Shown here: positions 1 to 18,631 of the stretch, in pieces
How positions within the stretch are numbered: position 1 is the first letter of the stretch
Layout of the letters: each line of letters begins with the position of its first letter
Assembly: GCA_040766135.1 (NCBI GenBank)
Contig: JAXGRA010000012.1
Coordinates: 9,744 to 73,743 of the forward strand
From: Christensenellales bacterium
GTDB taxonomy: Bacteria; Bacillota; Clostridia; Christensenellales; Aristaeellaceae
Length of the DNA: 64,000 nt
Direction: 5' to 3'
Notes under the pieces: model-generated
Seen by the model: the letters and a program-made list of their open reading frames with translations, nothing else
Told to the model about the DNA's origin: nothing
Databases searched by the model: none
Translations under genes and position numbers: made by a program

Positions 1-137
1 TCGACCCGGACAAACCTGTTACCATGATGGTCTTTTTCGAGTTTACGCCGCCGGAGCAGTACCCGGACGCATTCCGTTTAGGACACAGCGAGCAGGATTC
101 TATCCTGATCCCCTTTACCAGATTACCGGCGCAGTAA
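1..137 (+). CDS. 3' end of an unidentified CDS (5' part outside the window)
   Basis: Frame 3 is open from the window edge to TAA 135-137 (DPDKPVTMMVFFEFTPPEQYPDAFRLGHSEQDSILIPFTRLPAQ*). Same strand as the downstream secreted-protein genes. No family recognised. Confidence 0.3.
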   Translation, partial: DPDKPVTMMVFFEFTPPEQYPDAFRLGHSEQDSILIPFTRLPAQ

Positions 138-206
138 GCGCTGTGCAGATCAATATGTAAGCCCGCCAGGCGGCAGGCTGGTTTGTCGATGCCACAATGA
201 AAGGAC

Positions 207-617
207 ATGCATATGAAACATGCAAGGAAAACTCTGGTTTGGATGCTTCTGCTGGCTCCGTCCGGCGTGGTGGCACAGGATGTGCCGCTGGTCGGCGTGC
301 AGCACATGATAAGCACCTATGAAACCTTGATAAAAAACGGTCAGCTGCGCCGGGTGGATAGCGTACAGTTGGGGTATATCGGCTGGTACAACCGGCGCGA
401 CCCCGGCACGCTGACGCTGCTGCCCTGCTGGATGTTGGAAGGCCTGCTGTATAACAGCGCCGCGGACACCGGCCTGTTGGAGGGCACAGATTACCCCATA
501 CTGGACGATCACGTAAGCCAGGTGCTGGTATGCGCGCAGACCGGGCAATGCATCGACCCCTGGCGCGCCGATCAAGGCCGCCTGTACGACCTGCCTGTAA
601 AACTGCCCAAACAATAA
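207..617 (+). CDS. small secreted protein; stand-alone copy of the C-terminal domain shared by the paralogs at 2835, 4065 and 5362
   Basis: ATG 207/213 follows GAAAGGA. Signal-like MKHARKTLVWMLLLAPSGVVAQ. LRRVDSVQLGYIGWYNRRDPGTLTLLPCWMLEG and AQTGQCIDPWRAD align by eye with LRSVDALRLGYVGWYNKSDSGTLTLLPFWVLEG and AQTGELIDSWRAD of ORF 4065..5303. Confidence 0.6.
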   Translation: MHMKHARKTLVWMLLLAPSGVVAQDVPLVGVQHMISTYETLIKNGQLRRVDSVQLGYIGWYNRRDPGTLTLLPCWMLEGLLYNSAADTGLLEGTDYPILDDHVSQVLVCAQTGQCIDPWRADQGRLYDLPVKLPKQ

Positions 618-628
618 GGAGGAACCCC

Positions 629-2821
629 ATGAACATGAGGAAACTGATGTGCCTGTTGCTGTTGCTTGCGCTGCTGCCGCTGACGGCAGGCGCGCAGCCC
701 GCTGCGGCCTTTGCGCCGGGGATGAACCTGTCCGAACGCTTTGACCCGCCACACCGCAATTTAACGGCGCTGACCGCCTTTGACGGACAGGTGGTGTTTG
801 CCGACAACAGCCAGCTGTATGTGGCAACGCCGGACGGGCAAACATACGTGAAGCCCCTCCACGATTTCTTGGGCCCCGTGCGCGAGGGCGGCTACCGCTC
901 CCCTGCCTTTGCACAGGATGAAAAACGCTTGGCGCTGCTGGACACACAAAGCGGCGCGCTGGCGTGGTTAGACCCGTCCGGCGGCGCGCCCGCGCCCGGC
1001 GCCCGGTTGGCGCTGGACTGGCAGGACTATACCGCCGACATGGGCTACTATATGCAGGTAGAGCCGCCCGTGCAGTATGCGCTGGCCGGCGATACGCTGT
1101 ACGCGCTGGACGCCCGGGGTGCCAACATCACCCGTTTTTCATTGGACACCGGCAAAAAACTGCCCGCACTGTCCGCCGCCGCACAGGCCATCGTATCCTA
1201 CCGGGACGGCAAGCTGCTGCTGGTGCAGGCCTTGCCCAGCGCGGATGGGCAGGGGGCCGTGCCCTCGCTGATGGTATACGACCCGCAGGCAAATGCCGCC
1301 GCCCCGGTGCAAGCGCTGACCGGGCAGGTGGGCAGCGTCAGCTATGACCCCGTCAGCGATACGCTGCTGGCCGCGCAGGGCAATACGGTGTACGCCTATC
1401 CCGCCTTGGGGGAGGGAAAGCCCTGCGCCTCGCTGCCCCAGAACGATTTCTTTATGGAATATCTGCCCATTGCGGCGCTGCCCGGCCAGCTGTTGGCCGT
1501 GGGCACGCGCGACAGCATCTACCTGAAATCCGCCGATGCCGCCGCCTTTGCCGAGAAAACGCCGCTTAAGCTGCTGCTGGCCGCCTCCAGCAGCGATGGC
1601 CTCAACCAGGCCGCCAACGCCGTGGAAAACGTGGCGCTCACCGTGGTGCAGGATTCTCTGTCGCCGCTGGAATTTGCGCAGATGATCATCACCGGCGACA
1701 CCGAGCACGACCTGTATTGGGTGAACCTCAGCGCGGTGGATTTTGTGAGCCTGATGAAAAAGGGCTATGCCGCCGACCTGTCCGGCAGCGCCAAGTTAGC
1801 GCAGGCGCACCGGGAGCTGTATCCGCAGGTGCAGCAGGCGGTATCCGATGGGGAGGGCATCTATGCCGTGCCCCTGTCCGCCACCGGCATCACACTGTTG
1901 GGCGAGAAAAGCTATGTGTTTGACGAAAACGGGCAGCCCACGCTGCACACGCTGGACGACCTGCTGCAATATATGCAGATGTGGCCGGACACCATGGCCG
2001 AGGAGCACCCGGACATGACGCCCTACCGGGGGTATGAGGTGAAGTACGGCGCGCATGAGCTGGTGCTGAAAACGTATATCGACAGCTGCATCGGCACCGG
2101 GCAGGAACTGTCCTTTGACACCCCGCAGCTGCGGCAGATGATGGAAAAGCTGGCCGCCATGGACTGGGATGTGCTGGAATGCGGGGACGAGGACTACACC
2201 GCCCCGGTGGTGTTCAGCGATGAATGGCTGATGTTTTTGCATCTGTTCAACGGCGATGGGCGGGACAGCCATGACTATTTCCCCTTTTTGCTGGCGCTGT
2301 CGCCCGATGTGCCCGCGGTGCTGCCGCTGGAGGTCAGCTGCGTGTTTATCAACCCGCGCAGCCCGCATCAGGACGCCGCGCTGCAATTGGTGGAGGCGCT
2401 GCTGGATGCCATGCCCGACGATGACCGCATCATGCTGCACGAGCAGGAGAACACCCCGGTGGAAAACCCATCCTATCAGCAAACGCTTGCCGAATATGAG
2501 GCCCTGCTGGCCCGCAAGCGCGCCCAGATGGACGCCGCCACCGGCGGCGAGCGCAACGAGCTGAAAGCCTGGCTTACGCGCGCCGAACAGCACTATGAGG
2601 AGTTAAAGGTTACCCAGCGCTGGCTCATCAGCGAGCAGAACATCCGCGATTACCGCGCGCTGGCCGCGCACGCCTATGTGCGGCAGTACAACGGCGAATT
2701 CTTAGGCGCGCGCACGGCGGTAGAAACGCTGAGCCAGTATACCGGCGGCAGCATCGACCTGGACAGATTTTTGAGTGACATCCAAAATCGTCTGAATCTG
2801 ATCCGCAACGAAAGCCGGTAA
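629..2821 (+). CDS. large secreted protein of unknown function; the C-terminal half resembles a family-1 solute-binding protein
   Basis: AAGGAGG 616-622 precedes ATG 629, so the track ORF from 530 is an in-frame upstream extension. Signal peptide MNMRKLMCLLLLLALLPLTAGAQP. The middle region DLYWVNLSAVDFVSLMKKGYAADLS is SBP-like. Function not recognised. Confidence 0.7.
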   Translation: MNMRKLMCLLLLLALLPLTAGAQPAAAFAPGMNLSERFDPPHRNLTALTAFDGQVVFADNSQLYVATPDGQTYVKPLHDFLGPVREGGYRSPAFAQDEKRLALLDTQSGALAWLDPSGGAPAPGARLALDWQDYTADMGYYMQVEPPVQYALAGDTLYALDARGANITRFSLDTGKKLPALSAAAQAIVSYRDGKLLLVQALPSADGQGAVPSLMVYDPQANAAAPVQALTGQVGSVSYDPVSDTLLAAQGNTVYAYPALGEGKPCASLPQNDFFMEYLPIAALPGQLLAVGTRDSIYLKSADAAAFAEKTPLKLLLAASSSDGLNQAANAVENVALTVVQDSLSPLEFAQMIITGDTEHDLYWVNLSAVDFVSLMKKGYAADLSGSAKLAQAHRELYPQVQQAVSDGEGIYAVPLSATGITLLGEKSYVFDENGQPTLHTLDDLLQYMQMWPDTMAEEHPDMTPYRGYEVKYGAHELVLKTYIDSCIGTGQELSFDTPQLRQMMEKLAAMDWDVLECGDEDYTAPVVFSDEWLMFLHLFNGDGRDSHDYFPFLLALSPDVPAVLPLEVSCVFINPRSPHQDAALQLVEALLDAMPDDDRIMLHEQENTPVENPSYQQTLAEYEALLARKRAQMDAATGGERNELKAWLTRAEQHYEELKVTQRWLISEQNIRDYRALAAHAYVRQYNGEFLGARTAVETLSQYTGGSIDLDRFLSDIQNRLNLIRNESR

Positions 2822-3785
2822 CCGGAGGGATTTGATGAAACGCTTGTTGATATGGCTCCTTGTTTGTTTGGGCGTATGGACGCCCGCAGCGCACGCTGAT
2901 GAGTGGCAATCCGTGCAGCAGCTGCACCGGCAAGCTGCCGCCGGATGGCGTCAGACGATACAGGCGGGCCGCCGCACGGTGGTCATTGACATAGACATCG
3001 ACGTGCCCGATGTGCAGGCTGTGCCCGTGCTGCGCATTGCCCGCGGCAGCACGGCATATACCCCGCAGGCGCAGCCGGACGAATTGCTCTATACATTCAA
3101 TGGCGGCGGCATCCCCGACTACCCCGGTTGCTTCGCCCTGGTTCATAACGCCCCGGACGGCGAATACTTTTGGGACAAGGGCGGCCTGAACCGGCGGCAG
3201 CCCACGGAATGGAAAAACGCTTATACGCAGGTATATGTCTGGCTGCGCCCGTGGGACATGCAGCGCGCCTGCACGCAGGGCAACCCCTATCCCTTGGGCG
3301 ATGCCGTGCGCGATGTGCAGGCGCTGCTGGATCGCGCAACGGACAGGCAATTGCAATTCTCACTGGACACCGTGGAGACCGTGGGCATTTACAGCGTCAA
3401 GGAATGGACAGGGCAAACCCCAATCTTGGGCGAACTGCTGGCACCGGAATATTACAGGCTGAAATGTACGCAGCACCTGCGCGGCCTGCCGCTGCTGCGC
3501 GCTATGGACATAGAGCTGATGAACAACGATGCCCCCAAAAATGTTCAGAAACATGCTGTGTTTGCCCCAGGCGATGCCGTGGTTAGAATCGCGTCCGCTT
3601 CTTCCTACAGCTTCGGCGTGCGGCCTGTGCATGAAACCGCCGTACTGCACGATGACATCCCGCTGTGCCCGCTTGCCACCATCCAGCAATCCATTGAAAA
3701 ATTGATTTTCTCCGGCCATCTGCGCTCGGTGCACAGCCTGCGCTTTGGGCTGGTGGCCTATAACGACCCGGACAGCGCGGATGGC

Positions 3786-3813
3786 ATCATCGCCATGCCC
3801 GCGTGGGTGGTCA
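3786..3813. repeat. 28-bp direct repeat, copy 1 (ATCATCGCCATGCCCGCGTGGGTGGTCA)
   Basis: Identical to 3847-3874. The bases flanking the two copies differ on both sides, so the repeat is exactly 28 bp. Confidence 0.95.
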
Positions 3814-3846
3814 GAGAAATTGAAATCAATGGCATTAAGGTTGAGG
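3814..3846. other. 33-bp AT-rich insert between the two 28-bp repeats
   Basis: GAGAAATTGAAATCAATGGCATTAAGGTTGAGG. Composition is clearly AT-richer than the surrounding gene, and I saw no second copy in the window. Confidence 0.9.
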
Positions 3847-3874
3847 ATCATCGCCATGCCCGCGTGGGTGGTCA
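3847..3874. repeat. 28-bp direct repeat, copy 2
   Basis: Identical to 3786-3813, offset 61 bp (not a multiple of 3). Confidence 0.95.
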
Positions 3875-4064
3875 AGGGCAACTACTACCGCAACCCGGCC
3901 GTGTCTGACAACCCCTGGAACAGCTTCACCCCGGACGGAAAGGCCTTTATCGGGGGTGCCAACAACTACCTGACCGATATCGTCATCAACGCACAGACCG
4001 GCCGGACGCTGATTGACCTGACCGATGTCCGTGACGTGCTGGCACCGGAGGTGGTGACAAAACA

Positions 4065-5303
4065 ATGAAACCTGCAAAAATCCTTTTATTGGCATTTGTT
4101 TTGTGCTGTCTGACTTTCACGGGCATCACCGCTGAATCAGTAAGCAGTGAACAGATGCAAAGCATCGTTGAATTGAGGGCGAGCGCGCCAGCCACCTGGA
4201 CAGCTGTATATGAAGCACATGGCCGTAAGGTTTCTGTAGATGTCCCGATTACGATTCCTGCGGTGCATACATTTCCCATCGTGCAGGCAACGGGCATGCC
4301 CGCTTCCTCCCTGTTGGATGTGAACCCGGAAGGGATCAACAGCCCATGGGGCCAGATTCTGGATGGTATCGGCGTTATTAACAGCCCGCTCTATTTCAGA
4401 TGGGACAAGCCGGATATGAAGACAAGCAACGATCTGGCGGCAGCCCATCCCACCCCCAAAGGGCTTGTCGGTTCTCTGAAAATACTGACGGTGAATCACA
4501 TCGATATGGATGCTTCCTATGCCTATAAGAACAGCGGTACGATGCGGCAGGCGGAGACATTTCTTAAAGAAGTCTGGGATACATATTTCCCTGGCGTGCC
4601 GTTGGATCTGCTGCCGTATCGAATCTATGCCGGCCAGGAGATGCGGAAACGCGTTGAGGGAAATAGCGCAGCCAAAGGAAAAATTTGGGAGGACTATGAG
4701 GGATATCTATACTGTGAGTTTCATCAAGTCATCAACAGCATACCATTCCTGGATGTGATTGAGCGCGCTTATACGACCTATGCAGGCGGGATGAACCTTC
4801 CTGTATCTGACGACTATTTCAACATGCCGTTTATCAAGCAGCCGCCGCGCTGCATGGCCATGCTCAATGGAGGGAAACATTACGGGGTGGATGGGTTGCG
4901 AACCGCGATTTTCTCCACCGTCACTGTACAGAAGACAATCGCCGACGATGTGCCGCTGTGCAGCTTTGATAAAGTGCTCTCCATCTTTGAAAGCCTTATC
5001 GAGCAAGGAAAACTTCGCAGCGTGGATGCCCTTCGTTTGGGGTATGTTGGGTGGTACAACAAAAGCGATTCTGGGACATTAACCCTTCTTCCTTTTTGGG
5101 TATTGGAGGGGGAGCTGTTTGAATCATCAACAAAAAACGCTCCGCTTTACGGCGATGGATATGATGATGCGGATGCTATTTACCCCCATAGCGCCGAATA
5201 TGGAATGGTTATGGTAAACGCCCAGACAGGCGAGTTAATCGACTCCTGGAGGGCAGACAAGGAGCGCGTTTTTGACAGGCCTGACATCATTACGTGGAAG
5301 TAA
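4065..5303 (+). CDS. secreted paralog-family protein, function unknown
   Basis: ATGA overlap with the restored stop of the upstream gene. Signal MKPAKILLLAFVLCCLTFTGITA. C-terminal domain DDVPLCSF...LRLGYVGWYNKSDSGTLTLLPFWVLEG...VNAQTGELIDSWRAD is shared with three neighbours. Visibly lower GC than the flanks. Confidence 0.75.
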   Translation: MKPAKILLLAFVLCCLTFTGITAESVSSEQMQSIVELRASAPATWTAVYEAHGRKVSVDVPITIPAVHTFPIVQATGMPASSLLDVNPEGINSPWGQILDGIGVINSPLYFRWDKPDMKTSNDLAAAHPTPKGLVGSLKILTVNHIDMDASYAYKNSGTMRQAETFLKEVWDTYFPGVPLDLLPYRIYAGQEMRKRVEGNSAAKGKIWEDYEGYLYCEFHQVINSIPFLDVIERAYTTYAGGMNLPVSDDYFNMPFIKQPPRCMAMLNGGKHYGVDGLRTAIFSTVTVQKTIADDVPLCSFDKVLSIFESLIEQGKLRSVDALRLGYVGWYNKSDSGTLTLLPFWVLEGELFESSTKNAPLYGDGYDDADAIYPHSAEYGMVMVNAQTGELIDSWRADKERVFDRPDIITWK

Positions 5304-5361
5304 GCGCATTTCTTGTCATCTTGATTGGCGACTATGATGCGGGATTACGCGAGGAGGCTTT

Positions 5362-6501
5362 ATGAACAAATCGATTCTTTGCATGCTGTGCGCGCTGATG
5401 CTGGCCGCCTTGATGCCCTGCGCTGCGGCAGGGCAGGCGTATGTGCCGCTGCCCGTTTTGCGCGAGCAGGCACAGGCAGGCATGACCGGCACCTGGGACA
5501 TCAAGGGCTGGACGGTAACGGTCAACATGCAGCCTGACCTGCCGCAGGCGGACACGTGCCCGCTGGTGCGCGTCAAGCTGCCCGGCGACCTGCGGCACCT
5601 GATCCCGAAAAATGCCAGCGATGCAACGTTGCCGTTGGAGCGCGACTACGACACGGCATTCCGCGCCCGCAGCGGCGCCGATGTGTTCTTTGTAGATACG
5701 CCGGGCAACATGGAATTTGCCTATGAGGCGCTGCCCGCAGGCAGCCCAGCCGAGGACAGCCCGCTGACCTGGGCCACCGCCATCGATGCCGTTGCGGCCA
5801 TTGTGGACCCTTTTCTGAAAGAAACCGGGCCGTGCACAATGACCACAAGCAGGCGCATGACGGCCACCACACGCACATACCGCAACATGGCGGAGGGGAT
5901 ATACCGCTGGGACTTACCGGAGCTTGACCGGAGCACGCCGCTGACCCAGATGGGCTTTTATGACCTGCATTGCCTGCAAGCCTTCCACGGCATCCCGCTG
6001 CTGGGCATCACATCCGGCAGCTGGGCCGACAAAGCCACCCGCGATGTGCCGCTACCACGGGGCAGCATAGATGCCGCTATCGCCACCCCGGAGGACTATA
6101 TGATTTCGCTCTCGCTTGCACGGTATGATGCCCTGCTGGCAGATGACCTGCCCCTTGCGCCCTTTGCGCGCATTGTGCAGGAGATTGAGCGCATCTTGGA
6201 TGACGGCCTGGCCTGGAGCATCTCCGGCCTGCGCTTCGGCACGCTGTGCTTCCATGACCCGGACAATGTGGGCAGCGCCTATCTTTTGGTGCCCGTTTGG
6301 GAACTGCAGGGCAGGTTTGTGGAGCAATCCTCCTCCCCTTTCCCCGACCCCGCCGACCCTTTCCTGCCCATCTCTTTGCGCGATGCGAATTACCAAACCT
6401 GCTACATCCATGCCCAGACCGGTGCGTTCCTGAACCCCATGGAACAAACGCCCGGCCGCAGCCTGGCGGAGATTATTACATGGGAGCAGGTGGGGAAGTA
6501 A
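5362..6501 (+). CDS. secreted paralog-family protein, function unknown
   Basis: GAGGAGG precedes ATG 5362. Signal MNKSILCMLCALMLAALMPCAAAGQA. C-terminus DDLPLAPF...LRFGTLCFHDPDNVGSAYLLVPVWELQG...IHAQTGAFLNP matches the family pattern. Confidence 0.75.
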   Translation: MNKSILCMLCALMLAALMPCAAAGQAYVPLPVLREQAQAGMTGTWDIKGWTVTVNMQPDLPQADTCPLVRVKLPGDLRHLIPKNASDATLPLERDYDTAFRARSGADVFFVDTPGNMEFAYEALPAGSPAEDSPLTWATAIDAVAAIVDPFLKETGPCTMTTSRRMTATTRTYRNMAEGIYRWDLPELDRSTPLTQMGFYDLHCLQAFHGIPLLGITSGSWADKATRDVPLPRGSIDAAIATPEDYMISLSLARYDALLADDLPLAPFARIVQEIERILDDGLAWSISGLRFGTLCFHDPDNVGSAYLLVPVWELQGRFVEQSSSPFPDPADPFLPISLRDANYQTCYIHAQTGAFLNPMEQTPGRSLAEIITWEQVGK

Positions 6502-16216: not shown

Positions 16217-18631
16217 ATGCCAAACACACAGGATTTGTTGCTGCCGCTATCAAATGAAGGATATGTACCATGCTGGCTGGTCAGCGGGATGCAGCTGGCA
16301 CCCTACACACCACCCAAGGAAGAAGGGCGCTGGGATGACCAGATCGCCTATGAAGTACACCTGCGCGAGCAGTTTTATCGCAAGCCGGATATTGCGCCCG
16401 AAGCCGCTGTAATCGGGCAGCCCTCGGCGCTGGGCTTGCCGTGGCGCTATGTGCCCATGCGCAGCCGTTTTGTGAACGAAAACCGGTTTTTTAACTCCCT
16501 GACCGATGTAAAGCTGCTGGCCGCCACCTGCCTGGTGTCGGAATGCGACCAGCAGGTCGATGCCGCGCTGTGGACATATATGGCAGCCGATGTCTATGTA
16601 AACGGCCAGCACGTATGCTGCAACAGGGTGCCGCGCTATAAGCCCATCCGGCGCATTGCCTGCACGCTGCCGCTCAAAAAAGGGCGCAATGAAGTCTTTC
16701 TGTACCTGCAAAACTTGGGCGTGCGCGATACGCGCAACATGGTGGCGCTGCAGCTGCCCGCAGCGCAGGGCGTACAGGCCAGCCTGCCCGATGAAGCGCA
16801 GGCGGCCGACTTTGTCGCCGCCGACCAATGGCTGCACGGCCTGACCGTTGCACAGGGGCATTTGCAGGTGCCCGATGCGCCCCCGGCCCCCGCGCGCCTG
16901 ACCATCGCCGGGCAGGACACGCCGCTGGGCGCAGGCTCGCATGCCCTGCACGATGCCGAGAGCATCCAGATGCACGTTGACCTGCCGGGGCAGACACTCA
17001 CGCGCACCATCGACATCCAAGAAAATATCCTCCCGCGCACAAAGCCGCTGCCCGCGGATGGCGACCATGTCATGGCGTACATGCAAATGCTGGCAGGCAA
17101 GCAAACGCAACTGCGCAGCGGCGCCATCCATTTTGCGGTGTTCTTTGTGCTGGCGCGGCTGTATGTGGGGCAGCGCCTGGCCGTTGACCGCGATCTGCTG
17201 CTGGATGACCTCGCCCACATCCGCAAGCGGGTGGACTGCAGCGATTTCCTGGTTACCGGTCTAATCCGCCTGGTGCGCGAGTACCCGGTGGACGATGATT
17301 TCGCCGCGCAGATGAAGGACACGCTGCTTACCTACCGCTACTGGATGGATGAAAACGGTGCAGACGGCATGTGCTTCTGGAGCGAGAACCACGCGCTGAT
17401 GTTCCACTCTGCTCAAATGTTAGCCGGACAGATGTACCCCGACGAGGTGTTTGTGCGCAGCGGCCGCACCGGACGCCAGCAGTACGAAAAAGGCCTGGCC
17501 CGCGTGCGCGCGTGGCTTACTGACACCGAGCAATACGGCATGGAGGAGTTTAACAGTGCCGGCTACCTGCCCGTAACGGCGGCCGCGTTGCTCAACGTGG
17601 TGGACTATGGCCCGCCCGATGTATCCCAGCGCGCCGCCCGGCTGCTGGATGATATGTGCCGCCAGCTGTGCCGCCATGTGTTTGACGGCAGCTCCATCAG
17701 CCCGCAGGGCCGCGTGTACCGCGATGTCATCCGGCCGCACCGGCAGGCGGTGCAGGATTTGCTGCACTATATCCTCCCGGATGTTTCCTATGTCAACGGC
17801 GACAACATGTGGCTGTCGTGCTTTGCCACCAGCAGCTACCGCTTCCCGGAGGATTTGCGCGCCCTGGCGCAATCTGACTATGATGGTACCTATAAATCTG
17901 GGCATGCGCGCATCCGGCTGAGCAAAACGCAGGCCTATGCGCTGACCAGCGTGGACTGCCCGCGCGATAAAAACGACGCGCCGCAGTGGACCAACCTGTG
18001 CTTTGTGCCTGGCTCCGACCGCGACACCAACACCTGGACGCGCTCCATCAACGAGCGTTTTCACGGCACCAGCGTGTTTGAGCCCGGCGTGTACGGCTAT
18101 CAGCAGCACCTGTGGTATGCGGCGCTGTCGGCTGCCTGCGTGGTGTTTGTCACGCTGCCCGGCAACGATTGCGACAACGGCGGCATGCGGCCAGACTACT
18201 GGTATGGCAACGGTGTGTTCCCGGCACTGCGCCAACACGGCAACGCGCTGGGGCTGATCTATGAAATCCCGGAGGATTACCCCATCCACTTCACCCACGC
18301 CCATTGGCCGCAGGCTGCCTTTGACCGCAGCGAGCACCGGGGGCAGTGGCTGTTTGGCCGCGCGCGCCAGGGCGCGGTGGCGCTGTGGTGCTCCGGCGCG
18401 CTCACGCCGCACAACGACCAGCTGATCAACAGCGAATACCGCTGCCCGGACAGCAAGGTAGCCTGGTACTGCGCCTGCGCCCCATGCGCCGATGATGCGG
18501 CGTTTGAGGCTTTTATGGAAAAGCATATGGCCAATGCGCCGCTCTATGACGCGCAGGCGCACACGCTGCACATGCCCGGCGGGCATGACCTGGTATACGA
18601 AGCGCACGAGAATATCACGCAGTTTATCTGA
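16217..18631 (+). CDS. large cytoplasmic protein of unknown function (possibly an alpha/alpha-toroid carbohydrate-active enzyme)
   Basis: 804 aa with no signal peptide, 33 nt after the ROK gene. The central region CFWSENHALMFHSAQMLAGQMYP loosely resembles heparinase II/III-type lyase folds. This assignment is tentative. Confidence 0.6.
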   Translation: MPNTQDLLLPLSNEGYVPCWLVSGMQLAPYTPPKEEGRWDDQIAYEVHLREQFYRKPDIAPEAAVIGQPSALGLPWRYVPMRSRFVNENRFFNSLTDVKLLAATCLVSECDQQVDAALWTYMAADVYVNGQHVCCNRVPRYKPIRRIACTLPLKKGRNEVFLYLQNLGVRDTRNMVALQLPAAQGVQASLPDEAQAADFVAADQWLHGLTVAQGHLQVPDAPPAPARLTIAGQDTPLGAGSHALHDAESIQMHVDLPGQTLTRTIDIQENILPRTKPLPADGDHVMAYMQMLAGKQTQLRSGAIHFAVFFVLARLYVGQRLAVDRDLLLDDLAHIRKRVDCSDFLVTGLIRLVREYPVDDDFAAQMKDTLLTYRYWMDENGADGMCFWSENHALMFHSAQMLAGQMYPDEVFVRSGRTGRQQYEKGLARVRAWLTDTEQYGMEEFNSAGYLPVTAAALLNVVDYGPPDVSQRAARLLDDMCRQLCRHVFDGSSISPQGRVYRDVIRPHRQAVQDLLHYILPDVSYVNGDNMWLSCFATSSYRFPEDLRALAQSDYDGTYKSGHARIRLSKTQAYALTSVDCPRDKNDAPQWTNLCFVPGSDRDTNTWTRSINERFHGTSVFEPGVYGYQQHLWYAALSAACVVFVTLPGNDCDNGGMRPDYWYGNGVFPALRQHGNALGLIYEIPEDYPIHFTHAHWPQAAFDRSEHRGQWLFGRARQGAVALWCSGALTPHNDQLINSEYRCPDSKVAWYCACAPCADDAAFEAFMEKHMANAPLYDAQAHTLHMPGGHDLVYEAHENITQFI

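What the first reader, a model, noticed from the sequence alone, without database searches (positions are those of the whole stretch)
3786..3874. Exact 28-bp duplication flanking a 33-bp AT-rich insert splits a secreted-protein gene; the footprint resembles an off-target CRISPR spacer integration
ATCATCGCCATGCCCGCGTGGGTGGTCA occurs at 3786-3813 and again, identically, at 3847-3874. The bases flanking each copy differ on both sides, so the repeat is exactly 28 bp. The 33 bp between the copies (GAGAAATTGAAATCAATGGCATTAAGGTTGAGG) are much more AT-rich than the host gene, and I found no second copy in the window. The 61-bp unit shifts the reading frame. ORF 2832..3908 runs into ...IIAMPAWVVREIEINGIKVEDHRHARVGG.... 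Frame +1 resumes ...IIAMPAWVVKGNYYRNP...INAQTGRTLIDL...VVTKQ*, which is the conserved C-terminus of the paralogs at 207, 4065 and 5362. Deleting 3814-3874 restores a single ORF of ~390 codons. A tandem duplication would repeat all 61 bp, and an IS element would be far larger. Repeat-length target duplication around a ~33-bp foreign segment is what Cas1-Cas2 integration produces. Non-canonical integration outside arrays (neo-CRISPR formation) has been shown experimentally in E. coli, whose type I-E geometry is 28/33. No cas genes or arrays lie in this window, so the mechanism is inference only.
Basis: partly seen in the sequence, partly recalled or inferred. Interest (0 to 1): 0.8.

Follow-up and report, generated by a model that had tools for sequence, protein, structure and literature searches.

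The report
Stray CRISPR spacer insertion splitting a gene
A 61-base insertion that breaks a secreted-protein gene in an uncultured digester bacterium looks like a CRISPR memory enzyme (type I-E Cas1-Cas2) pasting a "spacer" into the wrong place, which has rarely been seen in nature.

Summary
An exact 28-bp direct repeat (3786-3813 and 3847-3874) flanks a unique 33-bp segment (3814-3846). Related strains carry the uninterrupted 390-codon allele, with one copy of the 28-mer and no 33-mer, so the event is a derived, precise insertion plus target duplication.

It is not an assembly artefact. The same allele occurs in at least eight independent metagenome assemblies.

The duplicated 28-mer matches type I-E CRISPR repeats in exactly the register of the duplication, on the + strand only.
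- It shares up to 20/28 bases with 241 published I-E repeats.
- It ranks 2nd of 127,824 possible 28-mers in the window with an I-E weight matrix.
- It is ordinary with a type I-F matrix, with permuted matrices and at every offset within ±10.

The 61-bp period equals that of the E. coli I-E array. The insert also starts with G, the PAM-derived 29th base of most I-E repeats.

Best explanation, about 0.8: off-target integration by a type I-E Cas1-Cas2 integrase (a one-spacer "neo-CRISPR").

Two things could not be tested. No source (protospacer) was found for the 33-mer.

The parts
3786..3813 (+). First copy of the duplicated 28-bp target. In the proposed orientation this is the 'leader-proximal' neo-repeat.
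   Evidence: Exact repeat. Single copy in intact alleles. In-register similarity to type I-E repeats: rank 2 of 127,824.
3814..3846 (+). 33-bp spacer-like insert, GAGAAATTGAAATCAATGGCATTAAGGTTGAGG. Its first base G corresponds to the PAM-derived 29th base of I-E repeats.
   Evidence: Unique in the window. Absent from intact alleles. No source found in viral, metagenome, genome, phage or plasmid collections.
3847..3874 (+). Second copy of the duplicated 28-bp target.
   Evidence: Identical to 3786-3813. Also identical in all eight other assemblies that carry the allele.
2835..3908 (+). N-terminal fragment (357 aa) of the interrupted secreted-protein gene. It reads through the first repeat and the insert into a frameshifted tail.
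   Evidence: ORF list. Called as a 357-aa gene in independent assemblies. Belongs to the same 90% cluster as the 390-aa intact proteins.
3856..4068 (+). C-terminal fragment (70 aa) of the same gene. It starts at the ATG inside the second repeat copy and carries the conserved ...NAQTG... end of the domain.
   Evidence: Called as a 70-aa gene in other assemblies. Aligned with paralogs and orthologs.

Best explanation
A type I-E Cas1-Cas2 integrase inserted one 33-bp prespacer at a chromosomal site that happens to resemble a type I-E CRISPR repeat.

Proposed mechanism (inferred): the two staggered strand-transfer reactions, set 28 bp apart by the integrase's ruler, were followed by gap repair, which duplicated the 28-bp target. 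The result is repeat-spacer-repeat, a one-spacer 'neo-CRISPR', inside the conserved C-terminal domain of a secreted protein of unknown function. The 61 added bases shift the frame and split the gene into 357-aa and 70-aa ORFs.

Shown:
- the insertion is derived and precise;
- its geometry is 28 + 33 = 61 bp;
- the target resembles I-E repeats in register and on one strand;
- the insert starts with G;
- the allele recurs in many samples.

Inferred:
- the enzyme itself;
- that the host or a resident mobile element encoded it;
- that the 33-mer came from foreign DNA.
For: 1. Intact 390-aa alleles exist (98% protein identity; about 96-99% DNA identity in the flanks). They have a single 28-mer and no 33-mer. 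More distant orthologs (48-53% identity) read ...P(A/S)WVV(K/M)GNYY... without interruption.

2. The geometry is a 28-bp duplication plus a 33-bp insert, 61 bp in all. The E. coli K-12 I-E array read here has the same period, 29 + 32. The published PAM catalogue shows that the 29th repeat base follows the last PAM base: AAG gives ...CCG, AAC gives ...CCC, AAT gives ...CCT.

3. I compared the 28-mer with 241 unique published I-E repeats (Vink et al. 2021, PMC8482600, Additional file 3).
- On the + strand it shares up to 20/28 bases (median 15). On the reverse strand the maximum is 13 and the median 10.
- A sequence-weighted I-E matrix ranks it 2nd-4th of 127,824 window 28-mers (1.6e-5 to 3.1e-5). 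Against a GC-matched background the fraction is 2.5e-5.
- Only 6 sites reach 20/28 identity.
- The score is 10.9 at offset 0 and at most 0.8 at every other offset within ±10.

4. The result is robust.
- Rank 8 after removing all panel repeats at least 17/28 identical to the 28-mer.
- Rank 1 with the 'GGGGGTG' subclass matrix.
- Only 7e-5 of shuffles of the 28-mer reach its score.

5. Controls show nothing. A type I-F matrix of the same length puts it at the 56th-70th percentile. None of 500 column-permuted matrices did as well. An independent 13-repeat panel from Briner 2015, E. coli and P. aeruginosa gave a fraction of 3.3e-4.

6. In the orientation chosen by the matrix, the insert's first base is G. 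So is the 29th base in 138 of 191 I-E repeats of 29 nt.

7. The allele is real and heritable. It is identical in five Logan assemblies, one ENA MEGAHIT k127 contig and one JGI contig end, as well as in this window.

8. Off-target integration at sites resembling the native repeat is established for E. coli in vivo and for P. furiosus in vitro (as cited).
Against: - No cas1/cas2 or CRISPR array lies in the window or in about 12 kb of flanks.
- The rest of the host genome could not be reached. The species is absent from the genome collection, and a Cas1e protein search was swamped by Gammaproteobacteria.
- I know of no evidence that this Christensenellales lineage has type I-E, and the literature search found none.
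- No protospacer was found, so the PAM and a foreign origin are unverified.
- The 28-mer carries bases never seen in the panel at positions 7, 19 and 28. It starts with A rather than the usual G.
- Its hairpin potential is ordinary, and it matches no Rfam CRISPR-DR family.
Confidence: 0.8

Rival explanations
1. Replication template switching or microhomology-mediated repair. The polymerase copied 33 bp from an unknown donor, then re-annealed 28 bp upstream and re-copied the 28-mer. On this view the 28/33 lengths are coincidental.
For: The mechanism needs no cas genes, and none were seen. The donor of the 33-mer is unknown in every collection searched, so a donor elsewhere in the same genome cannot be excluded.
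Against: - It does not predict a duplication of exactly 28 bp, an insert of exactly 33 bp, a leading G, or a target that ranks 2nd of 127,824 for in-register similarity to I-E repeats on one strand only.
- There is no donor within 64 kb. The longest shared k-mer is 10 nt, as in shuffles.
- The insert is not an inverted or direct copy of neighbouring sequence.
Confidence: 0.08
2. Recombination or gene conversion imported the segment from a divergent allele or paralog that naturally carries extra sequence here.
For: Haplotypes around the site are mosaic in two assemblies (L014, L015). Recombination between strains, or chimeric assembly, therefore does occur at this locus.
Against: - No ortholog or paralog has extra residues here.
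- Insertion of 33 bp alone would be in frame, but the 28-bp duplication breaks the frame. The segment is therefore not a coding variant.
- The mosaics carry the same insertion with window-type flanking SNPs (3762-3957). That pattern suggests spread of one event rather than independent origins.
Confidence: 0.03
3. Footprint of another mobile element (IS, MITE, casposon or integrative element), or an assembly or sequencing artefact.
For: Direct repeats flanking an insert are the general signature of transposition. One JGI contig breaks inside the insert.
Against: - The same sequence occurs in eight or more independent assemblies from different projects and assemblers. One is a k=127 contig that spans the whole 89-bp structure.
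- A 33-bp insert is too short to be an element, and by inspection it has no terminal inverted repeats.
- From established knowledge, target duplications are 2-14 bp for IS elements and 14-15 bp for casposons, not 28 bp.
- There is no other copy in the window or in any collection.
Confidence: 0.02

Closest known systems
Non-canonical (off-target) Cas1-Cas2 spacer integration, or 'neo-CRISPR' genesis. Shown in E. coli type I-E by Nivala, Shipman and Church, Nat Microbiol 2018, who also reported putative natural cases in Yersinia pestis and Sulfolobus islandicus.
   Same: - The target duplication has repeat length and flanks one spacer-length insert.
- The target is outside any array but resembles the native repeat.
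- The geometry is 28 + 33 = 61 bp, as in E. coli I-E.
- The PAM-derived G is at the repeat-proximal end of the insert.
   Different: - It was found in nature, in an uncultured Christensenellales-like bacterium from anaerobic digesters.
- It lies inside a conserved coding domain and disrupts the gene.
- The ancestral allele is available in sister strains.
- The cognate cas genes have not been seen.
- The Nivala paper itself could not be read here. Its content is taken from my memory and from papers that cite it.
Canonical type I-E CRISPR array (for example E. coli K-12 CRISPR-I)
   Same: The period is 61 bp. The repeat-like unit is 28 bp followed by G. The 28-mer shares 13-20 of 28 bases with real I-E repeats in register.
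   Different: There are only two repeats and one spacer. There is no AT-rich leader and there are no adjacent cas genes. The repeat stem-loop is degenerate and matches no Rfam CRISPR-DR family. The structure sits inside an ORF.
In-vitro off-target integration by P. furiosus Cas1-Cas2 (PMC6698737)
   Same: [quoted passage not shown]
   Different: That work used a different subtype with different repeat and spacer lengths, in a plasmid-based in-vitro system.

Membership tests
Off-target Cas1-Cas2 integration (neo-CRISPR), type I-E | Target-site duplication equal to the I-E repeat length (28 bp) | tested here: met
   The direct repeat is exactly 28 bp, with differing flanks on both sides.
Off-target Cas1-Cas2 integration (neo-CRISPR), type I-E | Insert of I-E spacer length (32 nt plus 1 PAM-derived base = 33), giving a 61-bp period | tested here: met
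   The insert is 33 bp and the unit 61 bp. The E. coli K-12 array read here has a 61-bp period. Catalogue entries given as 28 nt (PAM 'AA') lack the PAM-derived base, which then counts with the spacer.
Off-target Cas1-Cas2 integration (neo-CRISPR), type I-E | The pre-integration allele has one copy of the target and no insert | tested here: met
   L004 to L010 and proteins P0001, P0008, P0009 and P0014 show this (alignment A1).
Off-target Cas1-Cas2 integration (neo-CRISPR), type I-E | The target resembles the native CRISPR repeat, in register | tested here: met
   Tested against the I-E family, not the host's own repeat, which is unknown. Rank 2-4 of 127,824, up to 20/28 identity, + strand only, with a sharp peak at offset 0. 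The I-F, permutation and shuffle controls were all negative.
Off-target Cas1-Cas2 integration (neo-CRISPR), type I-E | PAM-derived base (G for an AAG PAM) at the repeat-proximal end of the spacer | tested here: met
   The insert starts with G in the orientation set by the repeat similarity. 138 of 191 I-E repeats of 29 nt end in G. The chance expectation is about 1 in 4.
Off-target Cas1-Cas2 integration (neo-CRISPR), type I-E | A cognate Cas1-Cas2 (type I-E adaptation module) and native array in the same genome | not testable with these tools
   None lies in the window or flanks. The species is absent from genome contigs. The Cas1e protein search listed only Gammaproteobacteria.
Off-target Cas1-Cas2 integration (neo-CRISPR), type I-E | The spacer comes from a protospacer with an AAG-type PAM in foreign (or self) DNA | tested here: inconclusive
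   No match beyond chance was found. Exact 33-, 24-, 22- and 20-mers gave nothing. 17-mer seeds extended to at most 26/33. BLAST E-values were about 1.
Off-target Cas1-Cas2 integration (neo-CRISPR), type I-E | Leader-like context upstream (AT-rich, IHF or anchoring motifs) | not tested
   The upstream flank is ordinary GC-rich coding sequence. Leader requirements for I-E systems in hosts without IHF are not defined.
Canonical CRISPR array | Three or more regularly spaced repeats, a leader, and a repeat belonging to a known repeat family | tested here: not met
   There are two repeats and one spacer only. No R-X-R variants or expansions occur in JGI metagenomes. There is no Rfam CRISPR-DR hit at E ≤ 10.
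Tandem duplication (slippage) | The whole unit is repeated, so the segment between the copies equals the segment flanking them | tested here: not met
   The 33-mer resembles neither flank and nothing else in the window.

The most novel reading that the evidence does not exclude
This is a natural CRISPR array caught at birth. One stray spacer seeded a neo-CRISPR inside a gene. The allele then persisted for years and moved between co-existing strains by homologous recombination, shown by window-type patches in two other haplotype backgrounds. On this reading it may be favoured because it knocks out a surface or secreted protein that other strains inactivate independently. It might even be transcribed within the mRNA and processed into a crRNA.
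Probability: 0.1. Interest if true: 0.85.

Novelty: new member of a known kind. Interest (0 to 1): 0.62.

Why it matters
Off-target spacer integration has been demonstrated with over-expressed Cas1-Cas2 in E. coli. Natural cases are few and circumstantial. This case has four useful properties:
- the ancestral allele is available;
- the junctions are exact;
- the target site is statistically repeat-like;
- the allele is seen in many samples.

It bears on two questions:
- It shows a fitness cost of CRISPR adaptation, namely insertional mutagenesis of a host gene.
- It is a concrete starting point for how new arrays arise.

It also makes a sharp prediction that anyone holding the MAG can check. 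The host should carry a type I-E system whose 28-nt repeat belongs to the '...GGGGGTGnTnC' class.

Tried and rejected
Source of the 33-mer. All searches were negative or at chance level:
- exact full 33-mer and two 20-mers in viral contigs;
- 24-mer core in JGI metagenomes;
- 22-mer core in GTDB representative genomes;
- blastn against GenBank phages and PLSDB plasmids, E about 1;
- three 17-mer seeds in viral contigs, with the 73 resulting loci extended in Python, best 26/33.

Array growth or alternative spacers at the same site. The pattern R-N{20,50}-R in metagenomes gave no hit.

Host identity and cas content:
- The relative-locus search found no relative in genome contigs.
- The E. coli Cas1e protein search returned only Gammaproteobacteria at 77% identity or more, mostly 85% or more. 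This was a poor use of a capped search.
- A literature search for Christensenell* plus type I-E found nothing.
- The 6.8 kb beyond the window end and 4.9 kb upstream hold no cas genes.

Other checks:
- Rfam gave no CRISPR-DR match to the 28-mer.
- The hairpin strength of the 28-mer is ordinary, at the 17th percentile.
- No intact allele with the window's exact protein haplotype, whether immediate ancestor or revertant, is in the collection.
- The Nivala 2018 paper is not held.
- I first compared only the reverse strand of the 28-mer with I-E repeats by eye and nearly dismissed the similarity. The computed scan showed that the + strand is the relevant one.
- The closest panel repeats turned out to be Klebsiella, Vibrio and Dickeya I-E variants, so they say nothing about the host's taxonomy.

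Full report
**Observation.** ATCATCGCCATGCCCGCGTGGGTGGTCA occurs at 3786-3813 and 3847-3874 and nowhere else in the window, even with three mismatches. No shuffle of the window produced a match. The bases on both sides of the two copies differ, so the repeat is exactly 28 bp. The 33 bp between the copies are unique in the window. Their longest shared k-mer with the rest of the window, on either strand, is 10 nt, which is typical of shuffled versions. The insert has 36% GC against 60% for the gene. That is only the 5.6th percentile of window 33-mers, so composition alone is weak evidence. The window holds no tandem array, no other regularly spaced repeat and no protein matching a Cas family.

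**The insertion is derived and precise.** Removing 61 bp gives a 390-aa protein. A search of the protein collection found a natural 390-aa protein that is 98% identical over its full length. It also found three orthologs at 48-53% identity that read straight through the site as ...P(A/S)WVV(K/M)GNYY.... Aligning the DNA of one intact allele (L004) with the window and two other assemblies shows a clean 61-column gap. The intact allele has one 28-mer and no 33-mer. Six further loci (L005-L010) also lack the 61 bp.

**It is not an artefact.** The identical insertion allele is present in five Logan assemblies from different runs (L001, L002, L011-L013). It is also in an ENA MEGAHIT k127 contig from an anaerobic-digester metagenome (L015). 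A JGI contig (L014) starts six bases before the end of the insert. Source names attached to members of the cluster identify the organism as an uncultured Christensenellales or Clostridiales bacterium.

**The gene.**
- It has a signal-peptide-like N-terminus and no Pfam family.
- It lies in a cluster of paralogs downstream of an ECF sigma factor.
- The paralogs share a C-terminal domain with invariant D..PL, P.W and AQTG. The insertion sits at the invariant P.W.
- The gene appears dispensable. Other strains carry an independent 1-bp deletion in an A5 run at 3537, which splits it into 289 + 101 aa.

**Mechanism: the decisive new evidence.** The duplication boundaries fix a 28-nt register. I asked whether that 28-mer resembles type I-E repeats, the subtype implied by the 28/33 geometry.

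The first panel had 13 repeats: 11 from Table 1 of Briner et al. 2015, plus E. coli and P. aeruginosa, whose sequences were confirmed by text search.
- The + strand matched 13-16 of 28 positions of every panel member. The reverse strand matched 8-11.
- A weight matrix ranked the site 42nd-47th of 127,824 window 28-mers.
- The score peaked sharply at offset 0.
- None of 500 column-permuted matrices did as well.

I then took all 241 unique I-E repeats from the PAM catalogue of Vink et al. 2021.
- Identity reaches 20/28, with a median of 15. The reverse strand reaches 13, with a median of 10.
- The sequence-weighted matrix ranks the site 2nd-4th of 127,824 (1.6e-5 to 3.1e-5). Against GC-matched 28-mers the fraction is 2.5e-5.
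- Only six sites reach 20/28.
- The score is 10.9 at offset 0 and at most 0.8 at every other offset within ±10.
- A type I-F matrix of the same length finds the site ordinary.

The result survives several variations.
- After removing every panel repeat at least 17/28 identical to the site, it still ranks 8th.
- With the subclass of repeats ending ...GGGGGTG..., it ranks 1st.
- With the E. coli-like subclass, it ranks 85th.
- Only 7e-5 of shuffles of the 28-mer reach its score.

In the orientation picked by this test, the insert begins with G. The catalogue shows that the 29th base of I-E repeats tracks the last PAM base, and 138 of 191 are G. The E. coli K-12 array read here has the same 61-bp period.

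Taken together, four features are what full-site integration by a type I-E Cas1-Cas2 complex produces:
- the exact duplication length;
- the exact insert length;
- the leading G;
- a target among the most repeat-like sites available, in the right register and on the right strand.

None of the rival mechanisms predicts these features.

**What remains unshown.** I could not reach the rest of the host genome.
- The species is not in the representative-genome collection.
- A protein search with E. coli Cas1e listed only close gammaproteobacterial relatives.

Whether this lineage has, or once had, a type I-E adaptation module is therefore untested. No protospacer was found in any collection, so the PAM and the foreign origin of the 33-mer are inferred. 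The 28-mer has bases unseen in real I-E repeats at positions 7, 19 and 28 and only ordinary hairpin potential. It matches no Rfam CRISPR repeat family. It is therefore an imperfect target, as expected for an off-target site, and there is no reason to think it is processed as a crRNA.

**Population picture.** Flanking SNPs define a window-type haplotype that carries the insertion (L001, L002, L011-L013; 99.9-100% identical). Two other assemblies carry the insertion within a window-type patch embedded in other backgrounds.
- L015 is like L009 outside roughly 3762-3957, and it also has the A5 frameshift.
- L014 is window-like up to 4088 and like L005 beyond.

This is either homologous recombination between co-existing strains or strain-chimeric assembly. 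Read-level data are needed to decide. In either case the linked flanking SNPs point to a single origin. No intact allele with the window's exact protein haplotype is in the collection.

**Comparison with the known.** The phenomenon is known. Off-target integration by Cas1-Cas2 at repeat-like sites was reported in E. coli in vivo, with circumstantial natural cases in two other species (Nivala et al. 2018; the paper is not held here, so I rely on my memory of it and on citing papers). It was also seen in vitro for P. furiosus. This locus is therefore a new member of a known kind.

It is unusual in three respects: it is natural, it lies inside a conserved coding domain, and the ancestral allele is preserved in sister strains. 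It fails the tests for a canonical array, a tandem duplication and a transposon footprint.

**Verdict.** My confidence that a type I-E Cas1-Cas2 integrase made this insertion is about 0.8. Interest is 0.62.

Noticed in passing
window 3533-3537 (A5 run); L005-L010 and L015: Other strains carry a 1-bp deletion (A5 to A4, after CCCCC) that independently splits the same gene into 289 + 101 aa. L015 appears to carry both this frameshift and the 61-bp insertion. The gene is therefore inactivated repeatedly in this species.
   Followed up: partly
L014 (window 3841-5769) and L015 (window 3341-4416): The haplotypes are mosaic. A window-type SNP patch containing the insertion is embedded in L005-like or L009-like backgrounds. 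This is either recombination between co-existing strains or strain-chimeric metagenome assembly. L014 also breaks exactly inside the insert, which suggests that both alleles co-exist in that sample.
   Followed up: partly
window 3833-3843 vs L016 (E. coli K-12 CRISPR-I leader, about -65 to -55): The insert shares the 11-mer CATTAAGGTTG with the E. coli K-12 CRISPR-I leader, just upstream of the reported integrase anchoring site (-53 to -50). The naive chance of this is about 1.5e-3, but I noticed it unsystematically. It is probably coincidence.
   Followed up: partly
window 3837-3858: The end of the insert supplies a Shine-Dalgarno-like GAGG 9 nt upstream of the ATG inside the second repeat copy. 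Gene callers therefore annotate the C-terminal 70 aa as a separate gene. Without a signal peptide it is unlikely to function.
   Followed up: no
window 1-6501 and L001 3399-11440: A gene cluster runs from an ECF sigma factor through a 373-aa protein to five secreted proteins without a Pfam family (134, 730, 390, 412 and 379 aa). At least four of these, not including the 730-aa protein (which was not aligned), share a C-terminal domain with invariant D..PL, P.W and AQTG. One paralog gives a weak, sub-threshold DUF6034 match. The 730-aa gene is itself split 79 + 647 in L005.
   Followed up: partly
window 18057-18084 (+): This is the only site in the window that scores higher than the insertion target with the type I-E repeat matrix (GTTTTCACGGCACCAGCGTGTTTGAGCC, 13.7 bits). 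It carries no insertion here. It could be examined in other strains as a second potential off-target site.
   Followed up: no
window, unspecified ORFs among 6608-63998: A PADLOC scan of 48 window ORFs gave hits to mad3 (two ORFs, best 1e-27), mad2 (3e-15) and mad8 (5e-8), and to several AAA-ATPase defence families (AriA, GajA, PtuA). These may be generic ATPase or ABC domains rather than a defence system. I did not identify which ORFs hit.
   Followed up: no
whole window: The species has no relative of this gene in the GTDB representative-genome collection. It is seen only in anaerobic-digester metagenomes and MAGs labelled Christensenellales or Clostridiales bacterium.
   Followed up: partly
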